DNA of 64,000 nt, taken from positions 4,590,001 through 4,654,000 of the forward strand of contig NW_024704742.1 in assembly GCF_018977255.1 (NCBI RefSeq), written 5' to 3'. Below, piece after piece: positions 2,981 through 64,000 of the stretch; position 1 is the stretch's first letter, and each line of letters starts with the position of its first letter. The DNA comes from Callorhinchus milii. Its lineage: Eukaryota. A program made the translations under genes and the position numbers. The notes beneath the pieces were generated by a model. That model was not told the origin of the DNA and did no database searches. It was given only the letters and a program-made list of their open reading frames with translations.

Positions 2981-5324
2981 GGCAAATATTGCCGCACTTT
3001 TCTATTGGCCCAGCACAGCTTTGTTTGGAACAAAGCCAGAGAGGGAGAGAGAGATGATTCATAGTGGGGTGGGGCGTAGGGGTGCGGAGGTTTGGTGGGT
3101 AGGGGGGGTAAAGGAAGAGGTCAGGGAAGAGGTGAGGAATAGACATGAAAAAAAATGCAGCCTGGAGGGTTTGAAAGACCGCGCACTGAAGTGACGTCGC
3201 ACAATAGTTTGAGTTGTTGATCCAGACGGGAGATTTTCAAAAATGGCGTCATCGCGCCTGGAACGCCGAACCTTTGCCTCACCCCCCACCCACCCACCCA
3301 CCCACCCACCCCTCTCCGAATGTCACTGCCTCGCTCGCTCTCCCGACCTCACCGCTCGTTTGCTCCTATCTGACCTCCAAAAGTGTCTGATTATTATTAT
3401 TAAGATGCTATATAATTCAATTTATGTTAGTTTGTTTACATCATGAGGACATATCACAGCGTTTGACAACGCTGGATAGGGAGGGAGGAGTAAAATGATT
3501 AAAAAGCAGAGTCAAAGAGGTATATTGAGAGATGCCACATCAAATTGACCTCCTTGCCTTGTTTGTTGCTGATTCATACTGTTTTGACATGATGAGTGAA
3601 GAGTCAATATCCCTAGGATTCTTTCAACTTATTCCTTGGCAAGCTCTGCCTCATCCTTGGAGTACACAACTCAAGGACAGCGAGGCTAATCTTCCCACAG
3701 CACTGGTGAAGATCAGCAAATTCAGCACATCGAGGAACAAACCAATTACCTTCCTGTTCCGTGCAGCTCAATGCCATGCCACTCGACACTTAATCATTGA
3801 ATTAATATATTGCAGCCTATGGCTGGATCAAGGCTCCTGTGGAGGAAGATGTATCTCTGATTTTGCTAACTGAATTCACTACTTGCTAAGTCTCTTTCCT
3901 CCTACATATCTCAAACTATAACCTGTTTTATATAGCCTCCGCCTTGCCCCTTCCTTCCCCATTTTCAGGTCGTGCATGAAGACCTTCCTTTTTGACCGTG
4001 TCTACGGTCACCTCCCCACCCCAGGGGCACTATATAAACGTTGTTGTCATCATTTTTCCCTTGAACCTATCCATTGTCTCAGATTGCTGGGAGGCTTGGA
4101 GCATGTTTAATACTGCACACTTTTTTTAGGTTGCTATTGATGTTAGACGTGCTCCCCATGCCCCCATTCTGGGGAGAAAATGGCTCAATGTTTCTCCTCT
4201 GTGTCACGTGAAGCCATTTCCTGTCCATTATCCCCGTGTAATTCTTATGCTCCAAAATGAAAGAGCACCAGAGATGATTGTATGGTTTCATGAATATAGA
4301 TTTCTTGGCTTTCTGCATGCTTCCTTTTGCCAACTAAAATAGTGCTTCCAAGTAACAAAAGACTAAACTGGGATTGTCACTGACAAAATAATCAGAAGTA
4401 AATTACACCCATACACCCTTACACATCCTTCTACTTAGCTTGATCTCTTCTGTTGTAATTAGGGTATGATCTGCAGTATTTCTGTGAACTATGAAAGTAC
4501 TGACAATAATATGATATAACTCTACATTGTTCACACAGTCTAAATCAAACTAATGAAACAGTTCCAAGTCACTTGTGAATAATTTGGAGAGTGAGTTGCT
4601 TCAGTTGACGTGATCCATAATGTTGTATATAGAATTATAATTGGATTGGGCATTTGGCAAGGAACCTATGCCATCAGAGGGCAATCATTCCTGCACCATT
4701 ATGTAAAAGACCTTTAGCAAGGGGGAAAGAAGGGAACTAACAGAGGAGCTGGATAGCGCTGTAACTTTCTGACATAACACGTTATTTACTTTGGTTTAAA
4801 AGCTTAATTAGCATATTGGATACCAGGGAATACTACTTTCTCTTTCGAATCGTATATGAGATGCTTAACGTCTACCTGAACAGGCAAAACAGGACCTTGA
4901 TTTACAACAATAACAGAAACTTGCATTTATATAGCGCCCTTCATGAGGGGTAGCATCCTGGAGCGCTTAAATTTAACGTCTCATCTGAAGGCAGCACCTC
5001 TGACAATGCAGCATTTCACCAGCACTCTACTGAAATGTTAGTTTAGACTGAGTTCAAAGACCTGACACAACACACAACCTCCTAATTCATAGGTTAAAGT
5101 GTTGCTAACACAGCCAGGCTGTTCCTCATCCAAGGGATACTGACCTAACTGTCTGAGTTTAGACAATATCCTGTGGATAAGATCAGAGGGAGAATTTTCC
5201 ATGTTTTGCAAATGACGAAGGAGACCTAACTAAAATCATGAGGCTATTTTGATTCTATTTTTCCAAATATAACTTCAGCAGCTTTAGAATAACCTGCTTA
5301 GGTTGGAGATAAGCAGGGTCATTT

Positions 5325-5870
5325 GGGACTGAGTTGTCTCCAAGGTGATATTCCAAGCATTTTGTGTGGAATCGACTGAATCCACTCAGTAGTTTGGTTC
5401 GCTGAACCCTTCAAGGCACTATTGGTGAAGAGCAGCCATCCTGACTCGTGGGCTACATGTGGAGGAGCAGACCAGTAACTGGGGGCAGGGATTGTTTCTA
5501 TGAAGCTCCTATTAATCCTGCTAACCCAAACCCTAACAGATATATGGTGGTCCTAGCTGGACAACAAGAACTTGCATTTATGTAGACCACTTCGCACAGG
5601 AGAGCAACAACAGAGTGAATCTTGCCAGACAGTGGTTGCAATTGAAAGGTGTATAGTTTAGCTGATTAAAACCCAGCAGCACTTAATACTTAATACTTTC
5701 CAGGATCCATTGAGCAGGATGCTTTCCTCCAAGGAGAGAAAGCACACTTCATTCCAGACACAGGAAAATTCCCATGCATATTTTGAACTCTCAAGGATTT
5801 CCGGGGGATACTCTTAAGCGCAATAATGTGTTTCTATGTTATATCAAACACCTGGCTGACCAAAAAAACA
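5325..5870 (+). mobile_element. Unidentified ~0.6 kb non-coding retroposon, diverged copy
   Basis: Shares 'tccaaggtga', 'ggtcctagctggacaa' and the terminus 'cacctggctgaccaaaaaaa' with 16767-17344. Confidence 0.7.
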
Positions 5871-5929
5871 CAAGGAAATGTCTTGTGACTGTAAAGTTAC
5901 AATCTAGAATCTGAATGACTTCCTTAATA

Positions 5930-6300: not shown

Positions 6301-6827
6301 TCTTTATATGCAGATGACCCAGTACCTCTATAAGATGGTGAACGAGTTCTCTCTATATGCTGGTCATTGAGTCCCTTCACATGCTGGTGGCATATTCCAT
6401 CTGATACTCCAGAGCAGTGCTGGAGGTATACTGAATTATTGGAGGACAAGGATTCAACTGATCACTTATTTCAGTCTTTGCGGTGGCTATGAGGGCACTT
6501 TAGGGTCTTCTCAAAAACTGTTAGCCTTTCTGTTGTATCTTGAAGTTTCCAGTTGGATTGACTGCTATTGGACTTTCCAGTTTTTTTTAGCTGTGCTTGT
6601 GGGCAGTGTGTGTGACATTGTTATGGTAATGTGGTTAGCAATGGAGACCAGATCTTGAAGAATTTTCCTGATTCAGACTTAACCAGTCCAGAAATTTACA
6701 GAACGAGCGTTTATTGATTCCCTACAGTTTCCTTGAGTTTGCCAATTCCTGCGCTGGATGTTCTTCCTAATGAAATATGCATAAGAGAATGAAGTGACTT
6801 GTCAGCTTGGCTCATAGCACTCTCACG

Positions 6828-7280
6828 TTTTTGTGGTCAGCCAAGTAGTATCTAATACATGCAGAAACCCATTAACGTGCATAACAGCATCCAAACCAAA
6901 CTACTGAAGAGTTCCACGGGTGTATAGTTTCTGTTTGTCTGGTATGGAGTGTAGCTTGGGGACCTGGGTGGATATGCCAGAGCACTGCTAGAGTTTAACC
7001 AGGTGAAACTACACAGTTTACTACTGATAAGCTTCCTGCTGCTTGTCCAGGTAGGACCATTCTACCTGTTAGTGTTTCGGCTTGCAGGGTTAACAAGAGT
7101 TGAATGCGAAGATTTACAGTCCAGTGACTGGTCTGCTCGTCCAAAGAGCCAATGAGCCAAGCTGTAATCAATATTGCCCTGGAGTACTTTGCACCTGCCA
7201 GGCTCAGGAACTACTTCAAAGAGTTGACTCATTTCCGATATTCCATTACCAGGCATGTCACTTTGGAGCCAAATGAGTCC
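6828..7280 (-). mobile_element. Unidentified ~0.6 kb retroposon, diverged copy
   Basis: Reverse-complement matches: 'tttttgtggtcagcc...gcagaaaccca', 'ctgcttgtccaggtaggacca', 'gtcactttggagcca'. Confidence 0.75.
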
Positions 7281-7899
7281 CAAATAGATACGATTACCAC
7301 CAAGAAGAACAGAGAACACCACCCTTGTTCCGATGCCAGAAGGTTGAGGATTAGGGGTTGAAGAGCCCCCTCCCACAATCAGGACTTGAGTTCATAGACT
7401 GGGCCAATAGTCCAGGGCAGGGTTGGGGGAACTAAATTGTTGGAGGTGCTGTCCTTTGGATGTTCACCTCATAGCTGGTCAGGGACCCTGGTGGTGTGAA
7501 CAAACTGTCACATTTGCCTACATATTGCTTGTTTCTTCCTTTATTCTACCTTTAACTCAAAGCAATAATCCCATAATGTTTACCATTGTTGTGGCCCCAT
7601 CTATTATAATGATAGGGAGTTTGCAAAGGAGAAGACAAAAGGAGATCATGAGTATGAACAACAAATTAGTCCCAGTTACTGGCAATTGGCTGTCCCATTA
7701 CGCCCACAAAACACAGTCACAACACTTTACAGTACCTGTGAAGCGCTTTGAGAGGTCTCGAAGATGTGATAAGGCATGATATCAAATGCAAGGATTATTA
7801 TTATTATAATTTATAATTCTGATTTAATACACACGCTACCACGAAGAGATAACCATTTTATCAGTTTGTGGCAGCACTTTCTCTGTATGTCTTAACATA

Positions 7900-8262
7900 A
7901 GGAATCATCCCACTCAGCTCCTGTTAACCCTGCAAGCCAAAGCCCTAACGGGTAGGCTGGTCCTAGCTGGACAAGCAGCGGAAAAGTTTGCTGGACACCA
8001 AGATCAACGGCAAGCTATGGTTTTTCCCCTGGATAGACTCCAGCAGTTACCCCAACGCACACTCTGGGGTCCCCAAGCTTTGGCTTTTGCCAACCTGCAC
8101 CTGATACTTTCCAGAGTTAGGTAAACAGGATGCATTCCTCCAGGGAGATTCCATTCCAACAATTTATCTCTGGAATCTCCATTTGTAGATGGGATGTATG
8201 GAAATCTCAGCTTGGCTTGGACACTCTTAAGCACGTTTCAGACACCCGATTGACCAAAATAA
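7900..8262 (+). mobile_element. Unidentified retroposon, 5'-truncated copy with (AAAT)n tail
   Basis: High similarity to 16950-17344; ends 'gacacccgattgaccaaaataaataaataaa'. Confidence 0.85.
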
Positions 8263-9229
8263 ATAAATAAATAAAATTAATTTGCTATATCCGGGAGAGT
8301 TCAAAAGAGTGGGACCATAGGAGACTTCAGTGTAAACTCAATCATGGGTGACATGGGGAGTCAGTGGAGCCGGGCGAGGATGGGAGTGATAGGATCACAG
8401 AGCCTGGTGCGGGAACAGTCACGAGCTGCAGAGTTCTGGATAGTCTGTAGCTTGTGAAGAGAAGAGGTGGGTAGTCCAGGGAGACGGAATAATTTTAGCG
8501 AGCAGAGAGATCACCCTACCAACCCGCCCACTCCCTCGGCTTGGCACATCCCCCGCCCAGCCCGCCCCACCATCAGCTCATCCAAATCCAATTTAGATGC
8601 TCACCTTCAGATGTCCCGAGCCTTGGGATGTCCTCCCAATGTAAAAGCTGCTATATATATATAATATATAATACATCTGTAAATTTGTTATTTTTGTTTG
8701 TTGGAGAGAGTGTAGGTGTTTCATGGAGGGCAATGTGAAGGGGACAGGCAGCTGTGGAGTTTGCAGGACTGGGTTGGAGGGATGGGGAGAGAGAGCAGGA
8801 TTTGGAAGCAAGGGTAGGGTGGGGTAGGGGGTTGGGAGAGCAGCACAGGCATCCTGTATATTTGGCCTTCTGTCGCAACCCTATTATTATTCAACATTGC
8901 CAAATGTTTTGTGGATGTACTTCTATCCAGATCTACTCTTAATTTTAAAATGATGTCTTGTTGTGATCTGCTCCCAGCTAGAGCGAAGTCTAGTTTCCAA
9001 TCACCTTGTCAGCTTGCTTTTCTTTCTTTAAAATAACTTATCTCGTAACAGCGGTATCTGATGTGTATTTCATTTGCGAAGCTCAAAGTTAACCAGGTTT
9101 TACAGAATATCCTACGAACAACAACAACAAAATAACATTTGGACGTCCTCCCAACGTGAAAGGCACTGTAACAAATGTAAGGATTATTAAAATTCTTGCA
9201 GGATATTATAATTCAATCTCACCCAGCAG

Positions 9230-13835: not shown

Positions 13836-15265
13836 AACATAACATAACATAACATGTAGAAGCAGGAGTAGGTCATTCGGCCCTTCGAGCCTACCCCGCC
13901 ATTCAATCAAGACTGATCTTCTAATCTAACTCCAGCTAATAACCTAACCCTGCCTTATCCCCATATCCCTTAATCCCTTTCGCAATAAGAAATCTATCTA
14001 TCTCAGTCTTGAATATGTTCAAGGACTGAGCGTCAACAGCCCTTTGGGGTAGTGAGTTCCATACATTCACCGCCCTTTGAGTGAAGAAGTTCTTCCTCAA
14101 CTCAGTGCGAAAGGGCTGCCTCTGATTTTAAGGTTGTGACCCCTGGTTTTAGTTTCTCCAACCGGGGAAACAATCTCCCACTATCTACTCTATCATTGCC
14201 CTTTGATGATCTTATAGGTTTCTATAAAAAAGGTGGAAATTGGTCAGTCTATCCTCGTAACTCAACCCTTTCATCCCTGGTACTAACCTAATAAATCCAC
14301 ACTGCACCCCCTCCAAGGCAAGTACATCCTTCCTTAAATAAGGAGACCAAAACTGCACACAGTATTCCAGGTGTGGTCTCACCAGGGCCCTATACAGTTG
14401 CAGCAAGACTTCCCTACTCTTATACTCTAATCCTTTCATAATGAATGCTAACATACCGTTCGCCTTCCTAATTGCTGCTGCACCTGCAGACTAACTTTCT
14501 GTGATTGGTGTACAAGGACACCCAAGTCCCTCTGGACGCTAACACATTCCAATCTCTCCCCTTCTAAAAAATAACCCGCTCTACTGTTTTTGCTACCGAG
14601 GTGGATGACTTCGCACTTCCCTACATTATACTTCATCTGCCACCTACCTGCCCAATCACCTAACCTATCTATGTCTCGCTGCATTTTTTTAATGTCGTCC
14701 TCTGTGTTGACACTTCCTCCTAGTTTTGTGTCATCCGCGAATTTAGATATATTAACTTCGATGTCCTCATCTAGATCATTGATGTAGATGGTAAATAGCT
14801 GAGGCCCAAGGACTGATCCTTGTGGCACTCCACTAGTCACATCCCACCAATCTGAAAAGGACCCATTTATCCCTACTCTTTGTTTCCTACCCATTAACCA
14901 TTCCCCAATCCACGTTAATATGCTCCCCCCAATTCCATGGGCCCTTATCTTTTGGACTAACCTTTTATGTGGCACCTTATCGAATGCCTTCTGGAAGTCC
15001 AAATAGTCCACATCCACTGATTCTAGTTTACTGGAAATGTCCTCAAAAAACTCTATGAGATTTGTCAAACATGACTTCCTTTTTGTAAAGCCGTGTTGAC
15101 TTGGCCTAATTATATTGTGCCCTAAATACGCACTACCACATCCTTAATCAACGATTCTAAATTTTTTCCTACCACTGATGTGAGACTAACTGGCCTATAG
15201 TTCCCCATCTTTTCCTTTCCACCTTTTTTAAATAGTGGTGTGACATTTGCGATCTTCCAATCCAT
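13836..15265 (-). mobile_element. 5'-truncated CR1 LINE (RT domain plus 3' UTR), frameshifted
   Basis: ORFs 14448..15068 and 14212..14454 contain YLDFQKAFDKVPH, GVPQGSVLGP, KFADDTKL and LYRALVRPHLEYCVQFWSP. The 3' tail is (TTATG)n at 13836-13855. Confidence 0.95.
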
Positions 15266-15584
15266 GTATTTCTCCCCCTCAGTTCTTTGCGGATTCTAGG
15301 TATATTCTCTCTGCTCCTGAGGCCCTATAAGTATTTGAGGCTTTAATTTTTTTCATAACGTATGTGTAACTGACCCTTACAAGTGTTATATGTTATAGAT
15401 TCTAGGACCATTGGAATGGATTTAGACTTCCTCCATTTTTTCTAATTGGTGAGTACTGATCTGAAGAATTAATTTGGCAAACAGTCCATTTCTGTCAGCA
15501 TTAGGGTAAGGTGCAATGAATAGAGCACACCTGCCCTGCATCGGTGATTCTGTTTTTGGATTTTACCCTGTTTGTACTGTCGTC

Positions 15585-16444: not shown

Positions 16445-16766
16445 ACATTGTCAAAGAAGCTACATCTAATGTTGACTGCAATTTCTTTGCTGTGAATTAA
16501 AACTGTTCCTCAAACCAGCTCTACTTTTGGTCTCATTTTGCCTCATTTGTACCTTGCAATTCACATCAAGTCAATTTTGCAATGCAAATTATGCAGCATA
16601 AATCCAGCATTAAGTTCAATAATTACCTCATTTTCCTCCTCTCCCTCTCTCTCTCTCACACATTAAATGGATGTGGAGAAGCTGCAGATCATATCTACAG
16701 TAAGAGCGCTGCAGGTCTACTCGCTGCTCCCAGATCAATGGCTGGTGCTCTGTATCTACTAGATGC

Positions 16767-17344
16767 TCCTCCTTGGGGAGGAGGTAAGCGGGGCCACCAT
16801 GAAGCTGAACTGGCTCCAAGGTGACGCACTTCGCAATGGAATGTTGGAATCGAACCAGTCCTCCTTTACAGTCTCTCGTCCGGTTCCTGTGCCAGGCAGG
16901 TCCACAGTATTCCAGGACACTGGAAGGGCAGACCAGTCACTGGGGGCAGGAAGCCATCCCAATCAGCTCCTGCTAACTCTGAAAGCCAATGCCCTAACAG
17001 GTAGGGTGGTCCTAGCTGGACAAGCAGCGGGAAAGCTTGCCAGACAGCAATATCAATGGCACGCTACGCGGTTTTAGCTGGTTAGACTCCAGCAGTTACC
17101 CCAGCGCACATTCTGGGGTCCCCAAGCCTTGGCTCTTGCCAACCTGCGCCTAATACTTTCCGGAATCAGGTAAGCAGAATGCGTCCCTCCAGGGAGAGAG
17201 AGTGAGAGCGCATTCCATTCCAACAATCTATCTCTGGGATTTCCATGTGTAGGTGGGATGAATGGAAATCTCAGCGTGGCTTGGATACTTTTACGCATGG
17301 TGATGGGTTTCTGTAAGTGTCAGACACCCGGCTGACCAAACAAA
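16767..17344 (+). mobile_element. Unidentified ~0.6 kb non-coding retroposon, best-preserved copy
   Basis: Flanked by atctactaga at 16754-16763 and 17345-17354 (TSD). A-rich 3' end. Seven related copies occur in the window. Confidence 0.9.
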
Positions 17345-17499
17345 ATCTACTAGAGGCAATTGCTGAACGTATGCTGTAGATGGCTCTGTTCAGAATCGAT
17401 ATGCAAGACAGCTGTGTCAGCCAGTTTTTCATGTTCTCTGGTGGTGGAGCGCTACGAAGGAGGTGATGCTTAACTTGCATCGATTGTCAGTTGGACTGC

Positions 17500-21789: not shown

Positions 21790-22620
21790 GAATGATGAAC
21801 CTGGTGCAGACACGTCCACCCAGTAAGCCAAGTGATCTTACTCAGAAGTCTCAGTCGCCTTGAGTTGGTGGAGATGGCTTGGATTGTCCTGGAGACCTGT
21901 GAGTGAGTAAACATTGGCTGCTCAGAGCTCATCTGTTGGAATGTTTTTTGGTCAGCTGGGTGTCTGACACACGAGGAAACCCATTATCAGTATGCTAAAG
22001 AGGATCTAAACCAAACAGAGAGAGCCATGTATCTCACTTACACATTGAAATTCCAAAGGTATTTATTGGAACGGAATGCACTCTCTCTCTCTGGAGGGAG
22101 GCATCTTGCTTACCTATTCCAGAGATTATTAGGTTGCAAGTTGACAAGACAAAGGCTTGGGCACTCTAGACTGTGCGTTGGGGTACTGTTGGAGTTTAAC
22201 TCCCCCCTCCAAGAACAACAGTCATTAGTTGTTCATTTGACATCCGACAAGCATGGGTTTGAGCCCTCACTAGCTGGATGGCAAGTAGCAGGAGCTTCCT
22301 GGTGGGCAACACAGTTCAGCATGAAATACATGGGAGCATCTTCCTGTCAACAGCTCGGACACACATCCCTTCTCATTGAGCGATGGTTCCGCCAATTTGG
22401 AGATGTGAAGCTTGAGCAGCAGTCGCTGACCTCTCTACAAACCAACCGAGGTGGATTCCAGGCACTTGATGTACAAATGGGTGTTCACCAATTTGGACTC
22501 CAGGTAACGCCTTCCAGCAGCTGTCAACCCAAGCCTCAGAGTTGCCTCATCAGCTATCTGATGGGCATCCGCCTTCAGGATAGTCAGAGGACCTTTACAG
22601 GACAACTTGAGATACGCCAG
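21790..22620 (-). mobile_element. Probable decayed DIRS-type retrotransposon RNase H region
   Basis: Minus-strand conceptual translation across frameshifts gives WSP, LYIKCLE (cf. LHINxLE), LLLAIQL and VDVSA (cf. VDLFAS) in DIRS order. It is interrupted by 21944-22200. Confidence 0.35.
21944..22200 (-). mobile_element. Unidentified retroposon, 5'-truncated copy
   Basis: 'ttttttggtcagctgggtgtctgacac...gtgcgttggggtactgttggagtttaac' is the reverse complement of 17080-17344. Confidence 0.85.
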
Positions 22621-23911
22621 CCACCCTCATGTAATGAGCCTCCTCATGTTGTAATGAACATTTCCTGTATTCTCTCAGGTACTTATCATTTTGTACACTC
22701 ATTTGTTTAATCTCTGTCTGGGTGGCAAAAAGCTGGTTTAGAGATCTACTGAAGCCACTAGTCCTTCAAATAAAATTGTATAATCTTTATATTTATATGT
22801 AATGATCACTGTGAAATGTTCCGGGACACTACCCTGCGTTAAGGGCGCTACATAAATGCAAGTTCTTGTTGTATACCGCCTTTCACATCAGGAGGATGTC
22901 TCAAAGTGCTTCATAAGATTTACTGTGAAGTGTAGTGATTTTGTGATTTGGTAGGCAAAATATATTTTGCAATGCACAACAAACATGATTTGCAGTGAAA
23001 CAATGCTTTCTTCACAGTTAGCAATAATTGCTGAATTAAGCCTCTTGATGTCTTAACCATTAAAGTCACTTGATAATTCGGTACTTGGCCATGAAGAGGT
23101 AATGGTTGCCGTTCAAATTTCACCCTGTGCTGAGTTCGTTGATTTCAGCTGAAGCTACAAATGGCCTCAATTCCCCTTGGTTACCAAAGGAGATCAATCA
23201 GATGCTCATTCCTGATCGCCATCATGCTGCAGATGAACAAATCTGGACAGTGTAGGATTGACCTTCCATTACACATGGTTTGAGGCCATAGCTGGATGCA
23301 TTAGTCTTTTCCTGGCACATCTTTTAACAACTCAAAGTGCTCTAAAAACATAATTGATTAGAATTAAATGTTATACAGGCAAACATGACCTTGGATGTCT
23401 TCCTGATGTGAGAGGCACTATATAAATGTAAATTTGTATTTAAGACTTCCTTATTTAATGTAACGCTAGAATAAACCAGCATGTAACCCTCCAGGCTCCT
23501 CACACCCAGGATTTTTGAATGGAAGAGAGGTTGCTCATTAGGCTCCGGCTCTAAGTTTATTTTTGTTTTATTTTGTAAGATATTTGTTTCTCAGCATGAA
23601 CCTGAAAGCCACTCTCTCTTCGTCGAAGAAATAACTCAAACGCGTGATCTGGAATAATAAATATGTGCACGAACACAGCAGCTTATCATTTTTTTCAAAT
23701 ACTTAAAAAGTGCTTAACAAAAAGTTACTTTGAAAGTGTAGTCAGTGTCAATTTTATTCAAGATTTACTTCTTTGACAGTATTTCGGTTAAATTTGCCTA
23801 AATCAAGTCGCACATCTTCTACAATCTATTCTAACGTGCCTGGGATTAAGGGATTATGATGTGGGCTTCCAACCGCACTTGTCGAATGTCAAATGACGAA
23901 CTAGTGATTAT

Positions 23912-24462
23912 TCCCCTTCCGTGGGAGGTAAGTGAGGTCTCCGTGTAGCTGAACTGGCTCCAAGGTGATGTGTTTGACAATGGAATGTCGGAATCAAGTC
24001 AATCCTCTGCAATGCTCTTGGTAGTCTGGTTTCCAAGACAGATAGGTTTGCTGTGCTCCAGGGCACTGCTGGTTACAAACCAGCCTGGCTCATTGGCATG
24101 ATTTAAGGGCAGGGATTTTTCCTACTCAGCTCACGTTAACACTGCAAGCCAAAGCGCTAATGGGTAGGGTGGTCCTGGCTTGACGAGATGTGGGAAGCTT
24201 GCCAGGCAGTGTTTTCAATGGTTATATGGTTTTAGCTGCCGCCCCCAGCACAGGCTGAGGTTCCCAAGCCTTGACTCTGACCAACGTATGCCTAATACTC
24301 TCTGCAATTAGGTAAGCTGTGTGTAAGCTGTCTGAGAGACAGTAGTTATTCCACTCCAGGCACAAGAATTTCCAAGTGTAGATGAAACTCTCAGCTTGGT
24401 TCGGACACTCTTAAGCATGGTGATGGGTTTCTGCATGTGTCATACATCCGGTTGACCAAAAT
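23912..24462 (+). mobile_element. Unidentified retroposon, near full-length copy
   Basis: Same 5' start ('gggaggtaag...gctgaactggctccaaggtga') and 3' end ('ccggttgaccaaaa') as 16767-17344. Confidence 0.85.
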
Positions 24463-24784
24463 AAGAGAGAAAATGATTGGACTCAGAGAAGTGGCAGGGG
24501 TTAGCAACAGATGGAGACAGGGGATGTGGTTTCGGCATGAGTTCTGAGCCTTTTCGTTGCCACTGATGAAATTTCATTAAAAATCGCAATAACTATTGTC
24601 TCCACGTTCCCAGAAGTGGGAAAGGCAGAAATCTGCTTTCATCTGGAAATGTAATACCCGGTTAATTTTGTCAACACCAGGACAATAACTGCACCATTCG
24701 GAACTTTACATAGTGACATGGTACACACTGTGCGTTTGGGAAGGGTTACAGTTGGCTGCAGCAAACTTAGAAACAGAAATTTCT

Positions 24785-28926: not shown

Positions 28927-29130
28927 TCCTGTAGCTTAGCGGTTAGAGCACTCGCCTCGCAAGAAAGAGGACCTGGGTTCATTCCCCAGCCCCCGGGAGA
29001 AACTCCCTTCTCTTTTCAAATAGTGCCATGGGATCTTTGACGTCCACCTGAACAGGCAGACAAGACCTCGGTCTAATGTCTCCTCCAACCGGACAGCACA
29101 AAGGACGGCACCTCCGACAATGTAACACCA
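28927..29130. mobile_element. Isolated SINE tRNA head (+) fused to an oppositely oriented Deu core (-)
   Basis: 'gtcctgtagcttagcggttagagcactcgc...gggttcattcc' is followed directly by 'ggagaaactcccttctcttttcaaatagtgccatggg'. Confidence 0.7.
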
Positions 29131-30449
29131 TACCAATTAAGGTGAATACCAAGACCTGGATATACGAGCATGTGTTCATGAACCTGGACTCCTTCCAGCA
29201 GCTGTTGATCCTGAATTCCTCATGTGCAGACTTAAAATGTTTTTCCCAACATTGCAGCCTGCCTTGACTTCAGCTTCAGAGCCTGATGCAAATTGTGGAG
29301 AATGTGGAGCGTCGGGAATGCAAAGAGTCAACAACAGTTTGTATTTCTAGAGCACCCCCTCACACAGGATAACATCTGGTGTGAAGCACTTCACTGTGAT
29401 GGGGGTCAGCTGTTGGGCAGAGAAGAAGGAACAGATTATGTAAAATGCTATAATCTTACAATAATAATAATCCTTGCATTTAATATAGGCGCTTTATCAC
29501 GTCGATGAGACGTCCCAAAACGCTTCACAAGATACTTCACTGTAAAGTGTAGTGACTGTGCATTTAGTGGGCGAAATGTGGCAGTCGGTTTGCATACAGC
29601 AATGTCCCACAAACAGCCATGGAGTGAGTGACCTGGTTGACGAGGTAGGTTTCAAGTCGTGATTTAAAGATAGAAATGTGGGTTAGGAGCTTCCGTTCAA
29701 TCAACTAGAAGACAGAGCAAGTGGGGTGAGGTGAGGACTGAGTTCATAGAGCACGTAAAGTTAGTGAAGGTGAGGGCGGCTGAGTTTTGGATTAGCTGGA
29801 GCTTATGGGTGTTGGGACTCGGAAGACCGGCGAGGAGTATGTTCGAAAAGTCTAGGAGGGCGGTTATAAAGGTGTATTAAAGGAGTTGGCAAGCTGATGT
29901 GTTACCTTCTACTGTGGATGCTTCAAAAAAAATGGCTGTTAAAGGGCGTGGGAAGTGAGCAGGAGTGGAGAAAAACAATAGCAAAACTGATTTTGCAGGC
30001 CCAAACGGCCTAATTATATATGACATGCTTTAGTAGCATTCTCTGACAGTATCGGTATAATTATAAATCTCGCTCACTGCACCAGGTACAACATTCCAGG
30101 TTATTAATTTGATGTCATTTGCAACAGGTAGTATGGACGATGCATTTATCTTATCTTAACAATAAAGAGTGACTGCACTGGGAGTGTTGCGTGGAGCTGG
30201 GATGAACAGAGTTATTCATCACCGGCTCTGCGAATGAGCAAGAAATAGACTGTTTGCTTTTGCTTGTGACTAAACTGCTGTATTCCCTGGCACTGAATGT
30301 TCTTCATGTGACTCATATTCTAGTTCACTTCAGCGTTAACCCTTTCTTCACTCAGTGGTGAACCTGGTTAGCGAAACTCTCGGTTTGGTGCTAGCTTCTG
30401 ACTGCTCTAGCGGTAGCGGTGTTCGCTCTGGTAGCTACCACTGCTACCG

Positions 30450-38307: not shown

Positions 38308-39514
38308 GTGAGTAAGGGAGCCGGAGGCTCTGCTGATGTCTCATTTCCTGGTTTGATGGCTCGAGTCTGCAGCTGATTTCTCATTGATCTCTCTCGCGTT
38401 CATCCCGACTGTCACAACACCCGCCCGTCAGAGTCACAAGCACAGGGTGAGCAACGGGGTGGACTGCTCATGGTCTCCAAACGCATCCTGACACCAGCGT
38501 GGCCAGCGTCATATCTCCAGTTTTGCAACCCCCCACCCACCCCCCTGCGCCCCCCCATCACCCCCACCACCCCAAAGAAATCAATTCTCACCGGTCCAGC
38601 CAGGATTGCACGAACTGGGTTTATTTTAGACCAGATGTAGCGCATCCACGACTGCTTGTGGGGCACTGCTGTGCGCCCACTAAATATACCAGTCGGTTCG
38701 CTTTACGGTATATTCCGCGGAGCGCCCCTCCCTCCCTCTCACTGCCCTCCCTCCCTCCTGCCCTCCCTCCACTGCCCTCCCTCCCTCTACTACCCTCCCC
38801 TCCCTCCTGCCCTCCCTCTACTGCCCTCCCTCCCTCTCCCCCTGCTCCTCTACTGCCCTCCCTCCCTCCTGCTTTCCTCTCTCCCTGCCCTCTTCCCTCC
38901 CTCCCTCTCTCTCCCTCCCTCCTCCCTCACCCCTGCCCTCCCTCCCTCAGTCAGTCCTCTCCCTCAGTCCTCTCCCCCTTCTTTGCCCCCCCCTGGTCTC
39001 TGCTTCTTATGGCAGTGACTGGAGCAAAGGAAAGAATAAATAACAATAATAATAATAATAAAAAGTTTGTGATTTTATTTCTCTCTCTTCTCTCTTTCTC
39101 TCTCACACTCTTTCTATTTTTGTTTGGTTTCCCTTCCTCCTTCCAGTCCTCAGCTTCCCCCCCCCACACCTTTTTTTTCTCTCTTTTTTTCCCCCCCCCT
39201 CTTTCTTTCTCTCCCTCCCTCCCCTCTGCTGGGTCTGGGGTTATTTACAGCAGCTCATGTGCTGCTGACTCAAAGGACTTTCAATGGGTTGTGTTACTCG
39301 CCAGAGAGAGGGAGGGATAGAGAGAGAGAGAGAGAGAGAAGGAGGAAGGGAGAGAAGGAGAGAGAGAGAGAGGGAGGGAAGGAATAAATAAATGATTGGG
39401 GGAGTGGATGGGTGAGAGGCACTGCCATTCAGGGCCATCAATTCCCCCCACCCCCACCCACCAAAAAAATACATTGCATTTCATCCCTAAAATTGACCCC
39501 TGAACAGCAAAGCA

Positions 39515-39645
39515 AACCCCCCACCCCCCCCCAACCTCCCCCCCCCACCCAAACCTCCCCCACCCCCCACCCCAAACCTCCCCCACCCCCCACCCAAACC
39601 TCCCCCACCCCCACCCAAACCTCCCCCTCCCCACCCCAACCCCAG
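39515..39645. repeat. C-rich tandem repeat (cccaaacctcccccacccc-like, about 5 units)
   Basis: Repeated cccaaacctcccc units; G-quadruplex-capable on the minus strand. Confidence 0.8.
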
Positions 39646-48364: not shown

Positions 48365-48832
48365 ATCAGAATCAAGTCGGCCCTTTGGTGCAGGTCTCGG
48401 TGCTCATGAGCCGGGCCGTGCTGATGACAGACCAGCCAGTCCACCTCGTTGGCAGGATATGGAGGGGCAGACTTGTCATTGAGGGCAGGTATTCTTCCGA
48501 AGCCAATGCCACAACTGGTAGGACGGTCCCAGCTGGACAAGCAGCGGGAAGCTTTCCAGATAGTGCTCTCACTGGCAAGCTATGGAGTTTTAAGCTGGTT
48601 AGACCCCAACGCACACTCAGCTGGTCCCCAAGCCTTGTTGTCTTGCCAAACTGCTGCTGACGCTCTCCAGACTTAGGTGAGTGAGGTGCGTCCCCTCCAG
48701 GTAAAGAGCAAACAATACAGATATGAAAATGTCCTTGTGTGGGTGGCAAACGTGTGGAACTCTCAATCTGGTTTGGATACCCTGAAGCACGTTGATGGGT
48801 TTCTGCAGGTGTCGGATACAAGGCTGACCAAA
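48365..48832 (+). mobile_element. Unidentified retroposon copy
   Basis: 'ggtcccagctggacaagcagcgggaagct' and terminus 'gatgggtttctgcaggtgtcggatacaaggctgaccaaaa'. Confidence 0.8.
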
Positions 48833-50418
48833 AGAAATTTGGGGGAGAAAGATAACTCATGATGATACAAGTTGTCGCATCTACTTAATAAACTACTAAT
48901 GTTTCTTAACCAGCACGTTCCCTGCCGTTTGAGTTGACAGCACGCAGCGAATTTAATTAAACCAGGTATCTTTTCTGATTTTCAGGAATAACCTGTCGCA
49001 AAGTGATTTCAAGTTAGTGTTACTGTCTGTTGGCAAAGGTATATGCAGTGATTAAAGGGACATGGCAATTGATTGTAATTATGAATTTAAGTAGAGTGAT
49101 TTCAGACTGTTGTAAAGACTACATATTTCAGTGGTACTTCACTGCAGTACAGCGTTTCAAATTTACAGGATATTGTATTTGGAGATGTGATGATTTTAAA
49201 TCATGAGGTCTCCTAAGTCTCATGTTGAGTTGTGTTTCCATTCCACCACTGATCAGCCTTTATTACTGCTTCAATCTGTTAAACGTCAACAGTGGCAGCA
49301 GTATAATTGAAGAAAACCGAAATTTCCTTCCTAAAATAGCATAGTAAAGAGGAAAATATGATGTCCAGAAGTTTTTAAAAGCCTTATGGCTGAACCATAG
49401 AGGGTTGGAAAAGCCATTGTTTCATAACAGATTTGATAACTATTGAATGCATTATAGAATCTGGAATAAAACATCACATTTTTCGCCCACAGTGTTAGTA
49501 TTTGTCACCTGCTTTACCTGTCATCCACTCGAAGCCTCTGGTGCAAAACTAGTTATTAGGACGACCACTTAATTTTCATCATCCCCGAGAAACTTTCTGT
49601 TTCAAATTGCAGTCATGGAATGAATCAATTTGTAACTGTTGAGACTTGAGCTGATAATCTAGGCTGATATTTCCGTGCAGTATCAGGTGAACCTGTCGTC
49701 TGTTGGTTGAAACATTAAACCGAGGTGTTTCGGTGGATGTTAAAGATCCTATGGCTCCATTCAAAAAGAGAAGAGAGTTTCTCCTGGCAACTCTGGATTA
49801 ATTGGTCATTCTCTGGCCAATTGTGGGACCAGCAGGGACAAATGGCGGGCACATTTGCCTGCAAGAAGGCAAATTACTTCAAAGCAAAAGGTAATTGCTT
49901 CAAAGTAATTACCCAATGATGGTGAAGGGGGCTGGAGAGGGCCAAAGACCAGGAACTCAACTGGCTTTCCCTTTCCCGGGAAGGCTGTGGGTAATTTATC
50001 ATCCCCATGGAGCCCTGACTGAGATCAGCAAAGTTACACGGTAATTTCTTGTTTGTGTTGGTACTGATTCTCGTGCAGCAATGATAAAAGAAGAGCGCAA
50101 GTTAAGCGTGTAAGCGCCCGCCCTGCCTTGACATTTCAAACTATTTCTTTTAATGACAAACAATTACATTATTTCAATCAGAAGATAGATTGACTCCAGT
50201 CCCCTTACGTCGCTGGAAACTCCTTTGTTGGGTTGATTCAAAATATGCTATTGTACCTGGAATGTTGAGTAAACACACCAGGACTAAATATTACAATAAA
50301 CGACTCCTACGGTGAACTTGCGGAACATCATTAGTTATCCAAATATCCTATAAACGTCAATGTTTGATGCATTGATGAATTTCATATTCAGCTCATGGTG
50401 GATTACGTCAGCGCAACG

Positions 50419-61878: not shown

Positions 61879-63310
61879 TTATATACATTTCCTGTCAGTT
61901 GTACGAGTTGCTTAGATCTTTGAATAATGAGGGCATTTCTATAGGACTCAACCTACTGTACTTCTTTCTCCATCCTTGCTTTAGTTATCTTCTTGTAGAT
62001 GATCCTTGGATTGTCTTGAATGCAATACACATCAATATGACAGCAATAGCTGGCAAACATATCAGGCAGGGAGAGGGGCAAGCCAGCAAATTAAGAGATG
62101 TTAAAGGAATGATTAGGATTACAAAAATAATAATCCTTGCATTTGATATAATAATAATAAGAGTTGCAATTGGCTGGGCATGGCTACCTGTGTTGAAACA
62201 CCGGATGGTATTTTGTATTTGGGGCATTGTGTAATTGGTTTAAAAAAAATCAAAACACAAAATTAAATTGTGTCTGTCTGGGATTCTGTATAATTGGCGA
62301 ATGAAAGAACATAAAAAATGAAGAGAAGTAGGTAGTAACAGAAGCTAAGTATGGGTAAAGGCACATGAACAGCAAAATCAAATTATGATAAGGAAACAGC
62401 AAAGAATTTTATAAATTAGTTTTCAATACCGTGAAGTACAAATTGGTGCTAGTTTGTGAACTGAGTTAACTACTCTAATCTCAATGCACTTCCCTTCATG
62501 TTCTTCCTCTTCAAATGTTTATGCAGTTCCTTAAAATGTTGTCATGATCTCATCCTCAAAAAAACACTGTGACAAAGTGTTCATATTTTTAATAATGTTC
62601 TGACAGAACAGGAAGATGCCTCAGAAGGAAGGAATACAAAGTAAACTACAGAAGTACAATCTTATGTTTGAACATTTGCAAGCATGAGAGAAAATAGTAA
62701 GTTTTGCTCTTTGTGTATGTGTCTATTTGCTAATAGCAAGGAAGGGTGATTTACTGGAAGTGTTTGATCAGGAGTTGGGAGCACTTCATTTTCCCCCAAA
62801 AAGGATATAACTTGCTTTTGTATGTTTGTGCCCGTAGGCAGACTTTTCCTGCCAAAAATACTGGGGCCTGGGTTACAGCCTTTAAAGTGACTGTTAGGAC
62901 GAGTCTCCTCCCTCTTTGACTGAATGAAGTTGCACGATCAGTCCGCAGGGAATGGCAAAATCTATATGCGCTGCATTTAAACCCAAGCTAAACTCATTTA
63001 AACTCAACTGCGTATGCTTGATCATGACATCTGGGCATTTTCCAAGGATCCTTCTTGTGTTGGGACGCTGCAGTAAAGGTTTCGGCCAATAGATGTCCTC
63101 ACTGAACGAGATACACACCAGAGCTCCCACTAGAGGCAGTTAATGTATACTACGTGTTTCTGTTAGTTTCTATGGACAACATGGATATTTCCAGGTCCCA
63201 CATCTTTGGATATTTCCACTTCCAGTGGGAGCTTCATTCTACACAGTATTGAGACTGAATTGACTTCTGATTCTCTTTAGCCTTATACGGTGGCAGTTGT
63301 ATAAACTGAA

Positions 63311-63582
63311 TTTGTCAGCGAAATCAATGATAAGCTATTAGGTTTTTGCTGGGTAGACTCCAGCAGTACTCCAACGCACACTCTGTGCTCCCCACGCCTT
63401 GGCTCTTGCTAACCTGCGCCCAATACTTTCTGGAATTACGTACGCCGGATGCGTCCCTCCAGGGAGAGCTGAGCACTCCATTCCAACAATCTGTCTCTTG
63501 GATTTCCATGTATAGTTTGGATACTCTTAAGCGTGGTGATGTGTTTCCACATGTGTCAGACACCCAGCTGACCCCCCAAAAA
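63311..63582 (+). mobile_element. Unidentified retroposon, 5'-truncated copy with TSD
   Basis: Matches 17050-17344. Flanked by tgtat(a/t)aactgaa at 63298-63310 and 63583-63595. Confidence 0.88.
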
Positions 63583-64000
63583 TGTATTAACTGAACTGCA
63601 ACATATTTAATAAGCATTTACCATGGAGCAAACTGTCCATAAGCCTAATGGAGACTATTGCTGCCAGGACTTAAGAGGAAATCTCTTTCATGAGTGGTGC
63701 CAGGATCATAAGGGAATCTTTTGCCACCACTGCAACAGAGACCAAAAAGGAATTCAGTACCATCACTGCCAATAGGCACTGAGAGAAATGTTTCCCACTC
63801 ACTGGGGACCTACAATCTAATTGTAGGTAGAATAATCTACTGCTCAAATAGATTTTAAAATGATTTATGCTGTGGAGCTAGCTACGGTGATGACTTTCAG
63901 TTTGGATTATAAGAGTGAAGCCAGAATTGCTGTTTCAAGGTCAAAGTTGAAGCTAAAGACAATTTATGAAAAGAATACATTTTAGTACTTTAGGCCATAT

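What the first reader, a model, noticed from the sequence alone, without database searches (positions are those of the whole stretch)
16754..17357. Abundant unidentified ~0.6 kb non-coding retroposon with no tRNA head (8 copies in 64 kb)
Seen: related copies at about 5325-5870, 6828-7280(-), 7900-8262, 16767-17344, 21944-22200(-), 23912-24462, 48365-48832 and 63311-63582. All end near GTGTCAGACACCCGGCTGACC followed by an A-rich tail. Several start close to the same 5' point and others are 5'-truncated. Two copies have 10-13 bp TSDs. I see no Pol III A/B boxes, no conserved ORF, and no match to the CR1 or L2 tails in the window. Established: A-rich tails, TSDs and 5' truncation indicate target-primed reverse transcription. 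Inference: this is a non-autonomous element mobilised by a LINE not visible here, possibly a bipartite 5'UTR+3'UTR LINE derivative (as known for RTE, Ingi and R2), or a retroposed structured ncRNA.
Basis: partly seen in the sequence, partly recalled or inferred. Interest (0 to 1): 0.7.

Follow-up and report, generated by a model that had tools for sequence, protein, structure and literature searches.

The report
Truncated tail ends of old LINE
The repeated 0.6 kb sequence is the untranslated tail of an old, dead LINE retrotransposon whose copies mostly broke off near the end of its protein-coding region, so it is an ordinary genomic repeat and not a new kind of mobile element.

Summary
The repeat is real. 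The window holds 8 copies plus one coding-region fragment, with nhmmer E-values from 1e-11 to 1e-196. All 8 copies end in the same motif and a short A-rich tail, and two have 13-base target-site duplications.

It is not a separate non-coding retroposon. Longer copies elsewhere in the genome, and the window copy at 21938-22638(-), continue upstream without a break. That upstream sequence is an open reading frame with a C-terminal CCHC knuckle and a TAG TGA double stop. Further upstream lie reverse-transcriptase and endonuclease-like sequence. The 0.6 kb unit is therefore the roughly 620-base 3'UTR of a LINE.

The family is old. The median terminal branch is 0.091, and the longest open frame listed among chromosomal RT-fragment matches is 221 aa. 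The RT most resembles L1 ORF2p among solved structures, but the clade is unresolved.

One oddity remains. The 5' ends pile up around the stop codon. In a 3'-end-selected sample, 11 of 25 starts lie between -44 and +41, and only 2 copies go further upstream.

I could not search Dfam or Repbase. The scan's notes held no earlier report of this repeat. Interest is low.

The parts
16765..17348 (+). The copy in the finding. It is a LINE 3'UTR from about base +1 after the ORF stop to the A-rich tail, and it lacks about 41 bases that other copies have.
   Evidence: Sequence; nhmmer (profile +1 to +620); alignments.
16754..16766 (.). 5' target-site duplication (ATCTACTAGATGC).
   Evidence: 13 bases with 1 mismatch against 17345-17357.
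17345..17357 (.). 3' target-site duplication (ATCTACTAGAGGC), directly after the A-rich tail.
5284..5873 (+). Diverged copy covering the whole 3'UTR (profile -5 to +619).
   Evidence: tail.
6827..7311 (-). 3'UTR copy in two pieces (profile +1 to +405 and +535 to +617).
   Evidence: tail.
7899..8272 (+). 5'-truncated 3'UTR copy (starts at +227).
21938..22638 (-). Longer LINE copy. It holds about 430 bases of the ORF2 C-terminal region with the CCHC knuckle and the stop, then the 3'UTR with an internal deletion (about +20 to +360), then the tail. A weak 10-base target-site duplication lies at 22647-22656 and 21934-21943.
   Evidence: profile -430 to +19 and +360 to +620; translation.
23864..24472 (+). 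Copy starting about 44 bases upstream of the stop codon, with the whole 3'UTR.
29128..29224 (-). Isolated fragment of the LINE's coding region (profile -342 to -231).
   Evidence: weak: 38 and 14 bits.
48366..48841 (+). 5'-truncated 3'UTR copy (starts at +80).
63314..63588 (+). 5'-truncated 3'UTR copy (starts at +322), with a 13-base target-site duplication at 63298-63310 and 63583-63595.

Best explanation
The 0.6 kb repeat is the roughly 620-base 3' untranslated region of an old LINE, a non-LTR retrotransposon that is no longer intact. The parent element encodes endonuclease-like sequence, a reverse transcriptase and a C-terminal CCHC knuckle in one long frame.

Copies were made by target-primed reverse transcription. 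The LINE protein nicked the target and primed on the A-rich 3' end of its own RNA. It then copied towards the 5' end and usually stopped early. This left the A-rich tail, the target-site duplications and the 5'-truncated copies. These steps are inferred from the anatomy.

The copies look like a discrete element because copying broke off unusually often in a zone of about 90 bases around the stop codon. My preferred cause is inferred, not shown. I think the enzyme stalled or switched template at the G-run and the two hairpins that open the 3'UTR. The truncated copies are dead on arrival and have no function of their own.
For: (1) Colinearity. In L068 one unbroken stretch runs from the RT thumb through the CCHC region and the stop to the 3'UTR and the A tail. 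L079 independently runs from an endonuclease-like end through the RT and C-terminal region to the 3' part of the UTR and the tail. The window copy at 21938-22638(-) does the same.

(2) Coding end. Real copies read C-x2-C...H-x4-C and then a double stop, for example L071 'CQNCGQEDGDNALTHFMLRYVAHREARRKF...TN**'. L077, L073, L070 and the window copy are similar. The same knuckle is present in P0001 and P0003.

(3) RT identity. The L078 fragment (80 aa) is 60% identical to P0001, a 1339-aa protein with endonuclease and RT domains. Its best solved relative is human L1 ORF2p at 1.2e-5, against 3.8e-4 for R2.

(4) Fewer copies upstream. First-look candidates for 200-base pieces of L068 were 1753 for the ORF end and 6263 for the UTR start.

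(5) The 5' ends in a sample chosen by the 3' end only. This sample was 16 loci, plus L046, plus the 8 window copies. Twelve of 25 start at +80 to +405, 11 start at -44 to +41, and 2 start further upstream.

(6) The UTR tree is star-like. Long and short copies are interleaved, needing 6 label changes against 5.6 in shuffles.

(7) No tRNA or Rfam family lies in the element.
Against: - The pile-up of 5' ends is far from random. Eleven of the 13 copies that reach +41 stop within 86 bases, against 1.8 expected from the stopping rate inside the UTR (P = 2e-8). Plain truncation does not predict this, and a separate short source transcript could also give it.
- The start of the UTR folds no better than shuffled sequence (z = -1.27), so the stalling idea has no support from folding energy.
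- The star tree cannot separate one source from two.
- First-look counts are rough. The 3'-most piece gave 4098, fewer than the UTR start.
- No full-length or intact copy was recovered, so the 5' half of the LINE is unseen.
- The clade is not settled. No L1-type ORF1 domain (PF02994) was found, though that search rang nowhere, including its controls.
- nhmmer end points are good to about 10 bases only.
Confidence: 0.88

Rival explanations
1. There is a separate non-autonomous element made of the LINE's 3'UTR alone. It would be transcribed from its own start near the stop codon and copied in trans by the LINE protein. Most short copies would then be full-length copies of this short element.
For: The 5' ends are strongly enriched around one region: 11 of 25 lie between -44 and +41, and only 2 of 13 continue upstream. 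There are about 3.6 times more first-look candidates for the UTR start than for the ORF end. The top matches to the UTR start are more alike (86-92%) than the top matches to the ORF end (81-86%).
Against: The starts are spread over about 90 bases with no single start site. Starts seen include -44, -36, -31, -12, -5, +1, +3, +12, +21, +22, +38 and +41. There is no tRNA, 5S, 7SL or other Rfam head. Short and long copies are interleaved on the tree. No promoter was shown.
Confidence: 0.09
2. It is a bipartite LINE derivative, with the 5' UTR joined to the 3' UTR by an internal deletion.
For: It shares its 3' end and tail with a LINE. Such derivatives are known in other LINE groups (recalled, not from a call).
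Against: The first 150 bases of the short copies are colinear with the sequence that directly follows the ORF stop in the long copies. The bases upstream of them are ORF codons, not a 5'UTR. No copy shows a junction to unrelated conserved sequence.
Confidence: 0.02
3. It is a retroposed structured non-coding RNA, or an element with a self-cleaving 5' ribozyme.
For: There are local hairpins at the start and the end of the unit.
Against: No Rfam family, including the ribozyme families it holds, matches at E<=1 within the element in 8 loci. Folding is not clearly better than shuffles (z = -1.27 and -1.85). The sequence continues upstream into an ORF.
Confidence: 0.01

Closest known systems
5'-truncated LINE insertions in general (human L1 and chicken CR1 are the textbook cases; recalled)
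   Same: Made by target-primed reverse transcription. All copies share the 3' end. They have an A-rich tail, variable target-site duplications and 5' ends of varying extent, and the truncated copies are dead on arrival.
   Different: The truncation points pile up in a zone of about 90 bases at the ORF stop. No intact source copy was found in this genome.
L1-superfamily LINEs (human L1 ORF2p; PDB 8C8J, 8UW3, 9K6G and others)
   Same: The order is endonuclease-like sequence, RT, then CCHC knuckle. The RT fragment aligns best to L1 ORF2p among solved structures, as does its nearest database relative P0001 (8.8e-27 against 1.4e-18 for R2). An L2-like LINE of the same genome prefers R2. The element has an A-rich tail and target-site duplications of 10-13 bases. 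A G-rich run opens the 3'UTR, and human L1 has quadruplex-forming sequence in its 3'UTR (PMC4407331, passages read).
   Different: No L1-type ORF1 domain was found (an uninformative negative). The tails are short and impure rather than long poly(A). The duplicated target sites are not A-rich. Other LINE clades have no solved structure, so clade membership was not tested properly.
CmiSINEs and SacSINE1-CM of the elephant shark, with L2-2_CM as partner (PMC5499810, abstract and section 6 read)
   Same: High-copy retroposons reported for the species that earlier notes of this scan assign to this genome.
   Different: Those have a tRNA-Ala head, a CORE or Deu body and an L2 tail. This unit has no tRNA head. 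It shares no DNA with the L2-like LINE, which ends in (TTG)n.
Non-autonomous LINE derivatives built from the 5' and 3' ends of RTE, Ingi/Vingi or R2
   Same: They would share the LINE's 3' end and tail.
   Different: There is no 5'-end module and no deletion junction. The unit is simply the uninterrupted 3'UTR.

Membership tests
LINE (non-LTR retrotransposon), 5'-truncated copy | The sequence is colinear with a reverse-transcriptase ORF in longer copies. | tested here: met
   L068 and L079 run from the RT to the tail in one piece. Ten further loci and the window copy at 21938-22638 extend into the ORF end.
LINE (non-LTR retrotransposon), 5'-truncated copy | Copies share a common 3' end and have variable 5' ends. 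| tested here: met
   In 25 copies chosen by the 3' end, starts range from -430 to +405. All 8 window copies share the end motif.
LINE (non-LTR retrotransposon), 5'-truncated copy | Target-site duplications of variable length flank the copy. | tested here: met
   Two 13-base pairs (1 mismatch each) and one weak 10-base pair among the 8 window copies; none in the other 5. More were seen by eye in L047, L051 and L053 (alignment).
LINE (non-LTR retrotransposon), 5'-truncated copy | The parent encodes an endonuclease. | tested here: inconclusive
   Only the end of an endonuclease-like region aligned in L079 (P0001 residues 321-408, E = 6e-5; P0004 from residue 296). The nearest full relatives have Exo_endo_phos domains.
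SINE with a Pol III-derived head | A head derived from tRNA, 5S or 7SL RNA, with an internal promoter. | tested here: not met
   ARAGORN and an Rfam E<=1 scan of 8 loci found nothing inside the element. The bases upstream of the unit are ORF codons.
Bipartite 5'UTR+3'UTR LINE derivative | A junction joins the LINE's 5' terminal sequence to its 3' end. | tested here: not met
   The first bases of the unit follow the ORF stop directly in the long copies.
L1 clade | The RT groups with L1 rather than with other LINE clades. | tested here: inconclusive
   L1 ORF2p is the best solved match. However, only L1 and R2 matched among LINEs in that library, and no reference RT set was available for a tree.
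L1 clade | An ORF1 of the Transposase_22 type. | tested here: inconclusive
   PF02994 gave 0 candidates in the genome. The search rang in no control genome either, and no 5' half of the LINE was recovered.
An annotated repeat family (Repbase or Dfam) | A full-length match to a named consensus. | not testable with these tools
   No repeat library is on hand. The 2007 survey paper lists three LINE-like repeats and one of unknown identity, without sequences in the text I read (PMC1845163, passages).

The most novel reading that the evidence does not exclude
The UTR-only copies may not be failed full-length copies. They could be reverse transcripts of LINE RNAs that had already been cut near the stop codon. 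One possible cause is a ribosome waiting at the stop. Another is the mRNA surveillance cut that long 3'UTRs attract (recalled biology, untested). The 5' ends of these fossils would then record where the template RNA was cleaved in the cell. That would explain a zone of about 90 bases centred on the stop codon better than a single stall site does.
Probability: 0.1. Interest if true: 0.45.

Novelty: already known. Interest (0 to 1): 0.14.

Why it matters
The main value is tidying. A high-copy repeat that looked like an unclassified mobile element is the tail of a LINE. It should be masked and counted as such, not as a new non-autonomous family.

The one point of wider interest is the sharp pile-up of 5' ends at the ORF stop. 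If it were shown genome-wide and in related species, it could say something about where LINE reverse transcription or LINE RNA breaks. With a dead family this is a minor curiosity.

Tried and rejected
- **Partner search through the best RVT_1 matches.** Seven LINE families (L039-L045, each about 9.9 kb) share no DNA with the unit. The only matches in the 30 loci were unrelated neighbouring insertions in L030 and L032.
- **First reading.** I first took the common alignment start at query base 262 as a defined 5' end. It was only the truncation point of the query copy L008. The alignment of the fetched loci showed homology going on upstream.
- **Stop-codon density by frame on a poor alignment.** It was noisy, so I replaced it with direct translation of real copies.
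- **Two ORF pieces of L079 against solved structures.** No useful match.
- **Names of database relatives.** The nearest proteins are unnamed environmental sequences, or chytrid and brown-alga 'hypothetical proteins'. They do not name a clade.
- **PF02994 search.** Nothing found, and the search is uninformative.
- **RNA evidence.** No RNA holder was listed. Four runs guessed to be RNA were laid as contigs. Thousands of contigs 90-99% alike lie on the repeat only. They come from many copies, so they say nothing about expression, starts or ends.
- **Folding.** Neither the UTR start nor the UTR end folds clearly better than shuffles.
- **Literature.** My searches turned up no paper that names this family, but they were not aimed at LINE catalogues.

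Full report
**Setting.** The window is G000:C1:4590001-4654000 of a 0.99 Gb genome. Earlier notes of this scan call the genome elephant-shark-like. I did not test that and use it only to choose papers.

**Observation.**
- The reported copy lies at 16765-17348(+) and is flanked by a 13-base direct repeat with one mismatch.
- blastn and profile searches find all eight reported copies. E-values run from 1e-11 to 1e-196.
- All eight end in the same motif and a short impure A-rich tail.
- A second copy has a 13-base duplication and a third has a weak 10-base one. The other five have none that I could find.
- Genome-wide, the 581-base unit gave 9858 first-look candidates. The 40 scored were 78-89% identical.
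- Neither ARAGORN nor an Rfam scan at E<=1 finds anything inside the unit in 8 loci.

**What it is.**
- I aligned 28 copies with their flanks.
- I then searched with the first 150 bases of copy L008 plus its upstream flank. That brought in ten further loci.
- Nine of these ten, and also L059, carry homologous sequence further upstream, from 107 to more than 640 bases. Each breaks off at a different place.
- Translating the real copies shows what this upstream sequence is. It is the end of a long ORF with a C-x2-C...H-x4-C knuckle, about 25 more codons, and a TAG TGA double stop. This is seen in L071, L077, L073, L070 and the window copy at 21938-22638(-).
- Further upstream, L068 carries RT thumb sequence that aligns colinearly to database LINE proteins.
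- L078 carries the RT active-site region. It reads RQGCPLSP...FADD in an 80-aa open stretch.
- L079 is one genomic copy that runs from an endonuclease-like end through the whole RT and the C-terminal region to the 3' part of the unit and its tail.
- Coordinates from separate searches also join up on the same strand. Examples are C2:57693932-57694130 with C2:57694102-57694278, and C4:25162077-25162275 with C4:25161927-25162105.
- The 0.6 kb unit is therefore the roughly 620-base 3'UTR of a LINE. The window itself holds two pieces of that LINE's coding region, at 22202-22638(-) and 29128-29224(-).

**Which LINE.**
- None of the seven best-scoring RT families of this genome shares DNA with it. 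The very abundant 1096-aa LINE ends in (TTG)n.
- The RT fragment finds 694 first-look candidates. Among the listed matches on the chromosomes, the longest open frame is 221 aa. Only weaker 41%-identical matches belong to intact frames of about 1000 aa, which are another family.
- The fragment's nearest database protein, P0001, is 60% identical over 68 residues. P0001 has endonuclease and RT domains and the same knuckle.
- Among solved structures the fragment and P0001 both match human L1 ORF2p best. The fragment scores 1.2e-5 against 3.8e-4 for R2. P0001 scores 8.8e-27 against 1.4e-18. An L2-like LINE from the same genome prefers R2.
- This leans towards the L1 superfamily, and the A-rich tail and 10-13-base duplications fit. 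It is not a clade test, because other LINE clades gave no match in that library.
- A search for the L1 ORF1 domain found nothing but was uninformative.
- Names of relatives did not help.

**Age.**
- A tree of the UTR part of 35 copies is star-like, with a median terminal branch of 0.091.
- A review states that the elephant shark genome holds many old, degenerate elements, mainly L2, CR1 and SINEs (PMC5381603, passages).
- Another paper says LINE1 occurs in all vertebrate lineages (PMC4350176, passages).

**The 5' ends.**
- To avoid bias, I fetched 16 of the top 17 matches to the last 200 bases of L068. I left out the query's own place and L046, which I already held, and then added L046 and the eight window copies.
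- The starts, counted from the first base after the stop, are: -430, -358, -44, -12, -5, +1, +1, +3, +12, +21, +22, +38, +41, +80, +146, +215, +221, +227, +273, +322, +328, +330, +334, +373, +405.
- Twelve of 25 copies end inside the UTR. Of the 13 that reach +41, eleven end within the next 86 bases and two go on.
- At the stopping rate seen inside the UTR, 1.8 would be expected to end there (P = 2e-8).
- Rough first-look counts agree: 1753 for the last 200 bases of the ORF and 6263 for the first 200 of the UTR. The 3'-most piece gave only 4098, which shows how rough these counts are.
- In the earlier sample, which was biased towards copies like L001, 22 copies start between -36 and +44. There is a small cluster at +20 to +24, directly after a G-run.
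- The starts are spread over about 90 bases, not at one site.

**Mechanism.**
- Shown: colinearity with a LINE ORF, the shared 3' end, the tails, the duplications and the truncation series.
- Inferred: insertion by target-primed reverse transcription from the A-rich end, with frequent early termination.
- For the hot zone I favour stalling or template switching at the G-run and the two hairpins that open the UTR. Human L1 also has quadruplex-forming sequence in its 3'UTR (PMC4407331, passages).
- Against this, the region folds no better than shuffled sequence (z = -1.27).
- A separate UTR-only source element remains possible. It is disfavoured by the spread of starts, the lack of any head, and the interleaving of long and short copies on the tree, which has little power.
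- A bolder reading is that the template RNAs were already cut near the stop codon.

**Known or new.**
- 5'-truncated LINE tails are textbook.
- I could not search Dfam or Repbase, so I cannot say under what name, if any, this family is filed.
- The 2007 survey mentions three LINE-like repeats and one of unknown identity (PMC1845163, passages).
- The published SINEs of the species are tRNA-headed with an L2 tail and are different (PMC5499810, abstract and section 6).
- The scan's own notes held nothing like this sequence.

**Verdict.** The interpretation as a new non-autonomous retroposon is not supported, although its retroposition part is right. The element is ordinary, with one minor curiosity.

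Noticed in passing
window 14508-15277 (-): This is an RT-coding remnant of a different LINE. It is 26-30% identical to P0001, P0003, P0004 and P0005 over its main stretch of about 150-220 residues and has no DNA similarity to the family studied here.
   Followed up: no
window 38726-38948 and 39518-39641: These are C-rich low-complexity arrays (CCCT-like, and C-runs with AAACCT). They lie inside the only GC-rich block of the window, which has GC 0.56 and GC skew -0.34.
   Followed up: no
L027-L039 and many other places (e.g. G000:C1:36084962-36085726): A very abundant LINE has many copies with an unbroken 1096-aa frame holding endonuclease and RT domains. It has a (TTG)n tail and looks recently active.
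   Followed up: partly
G000:C2:22199184-22199627 and G000:C1:32048404-32048847: These two places on different contigs are 100% identical over 444 bases, covering the L008 copy and its flank. This is either a recent segmental duplication or a duplicated assembly piece.
   Followed up: no
3'UTR, about -90 to +330 relative to the ORF stop (window 16767-17060 in the focus copy): The majority sequence of the copies has a stop-free frame of about 150 codons. It overlaps the end of the ORF in another frame and runs about 330 bases into the UTR. This may be chance in GC-rich sequence, and dead copies cannot test for coding.
   Followed up: no
L056 (G000:C5:38950250-38951080), upstream of the copy: A partial duplicate of the first about 20 bases of the UTR and its G-run sits about 70 bases upstream of the real one. 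It looks like a template jump or a local duplication at the 5' junction.
   Followed up: no
window 16784-16790 and 17306-17321 (the same places in other copies): There is a GGTAAGC splice-donor look-alike just after the G-run, and a pyrimidine-rich stretch ending in CAG near the 3' end. A sense insertion in a transcript could offer cryptic splice sites.
   Followed up: no
L006 137-209 and 1037-1108; L002 3485-3558: tRNA-like sequences (Val, Ala) lie in the flanks of two fetched loci. They are probably tRNA-derived SINEs and are unrelated to the unit.
   Followed up: no
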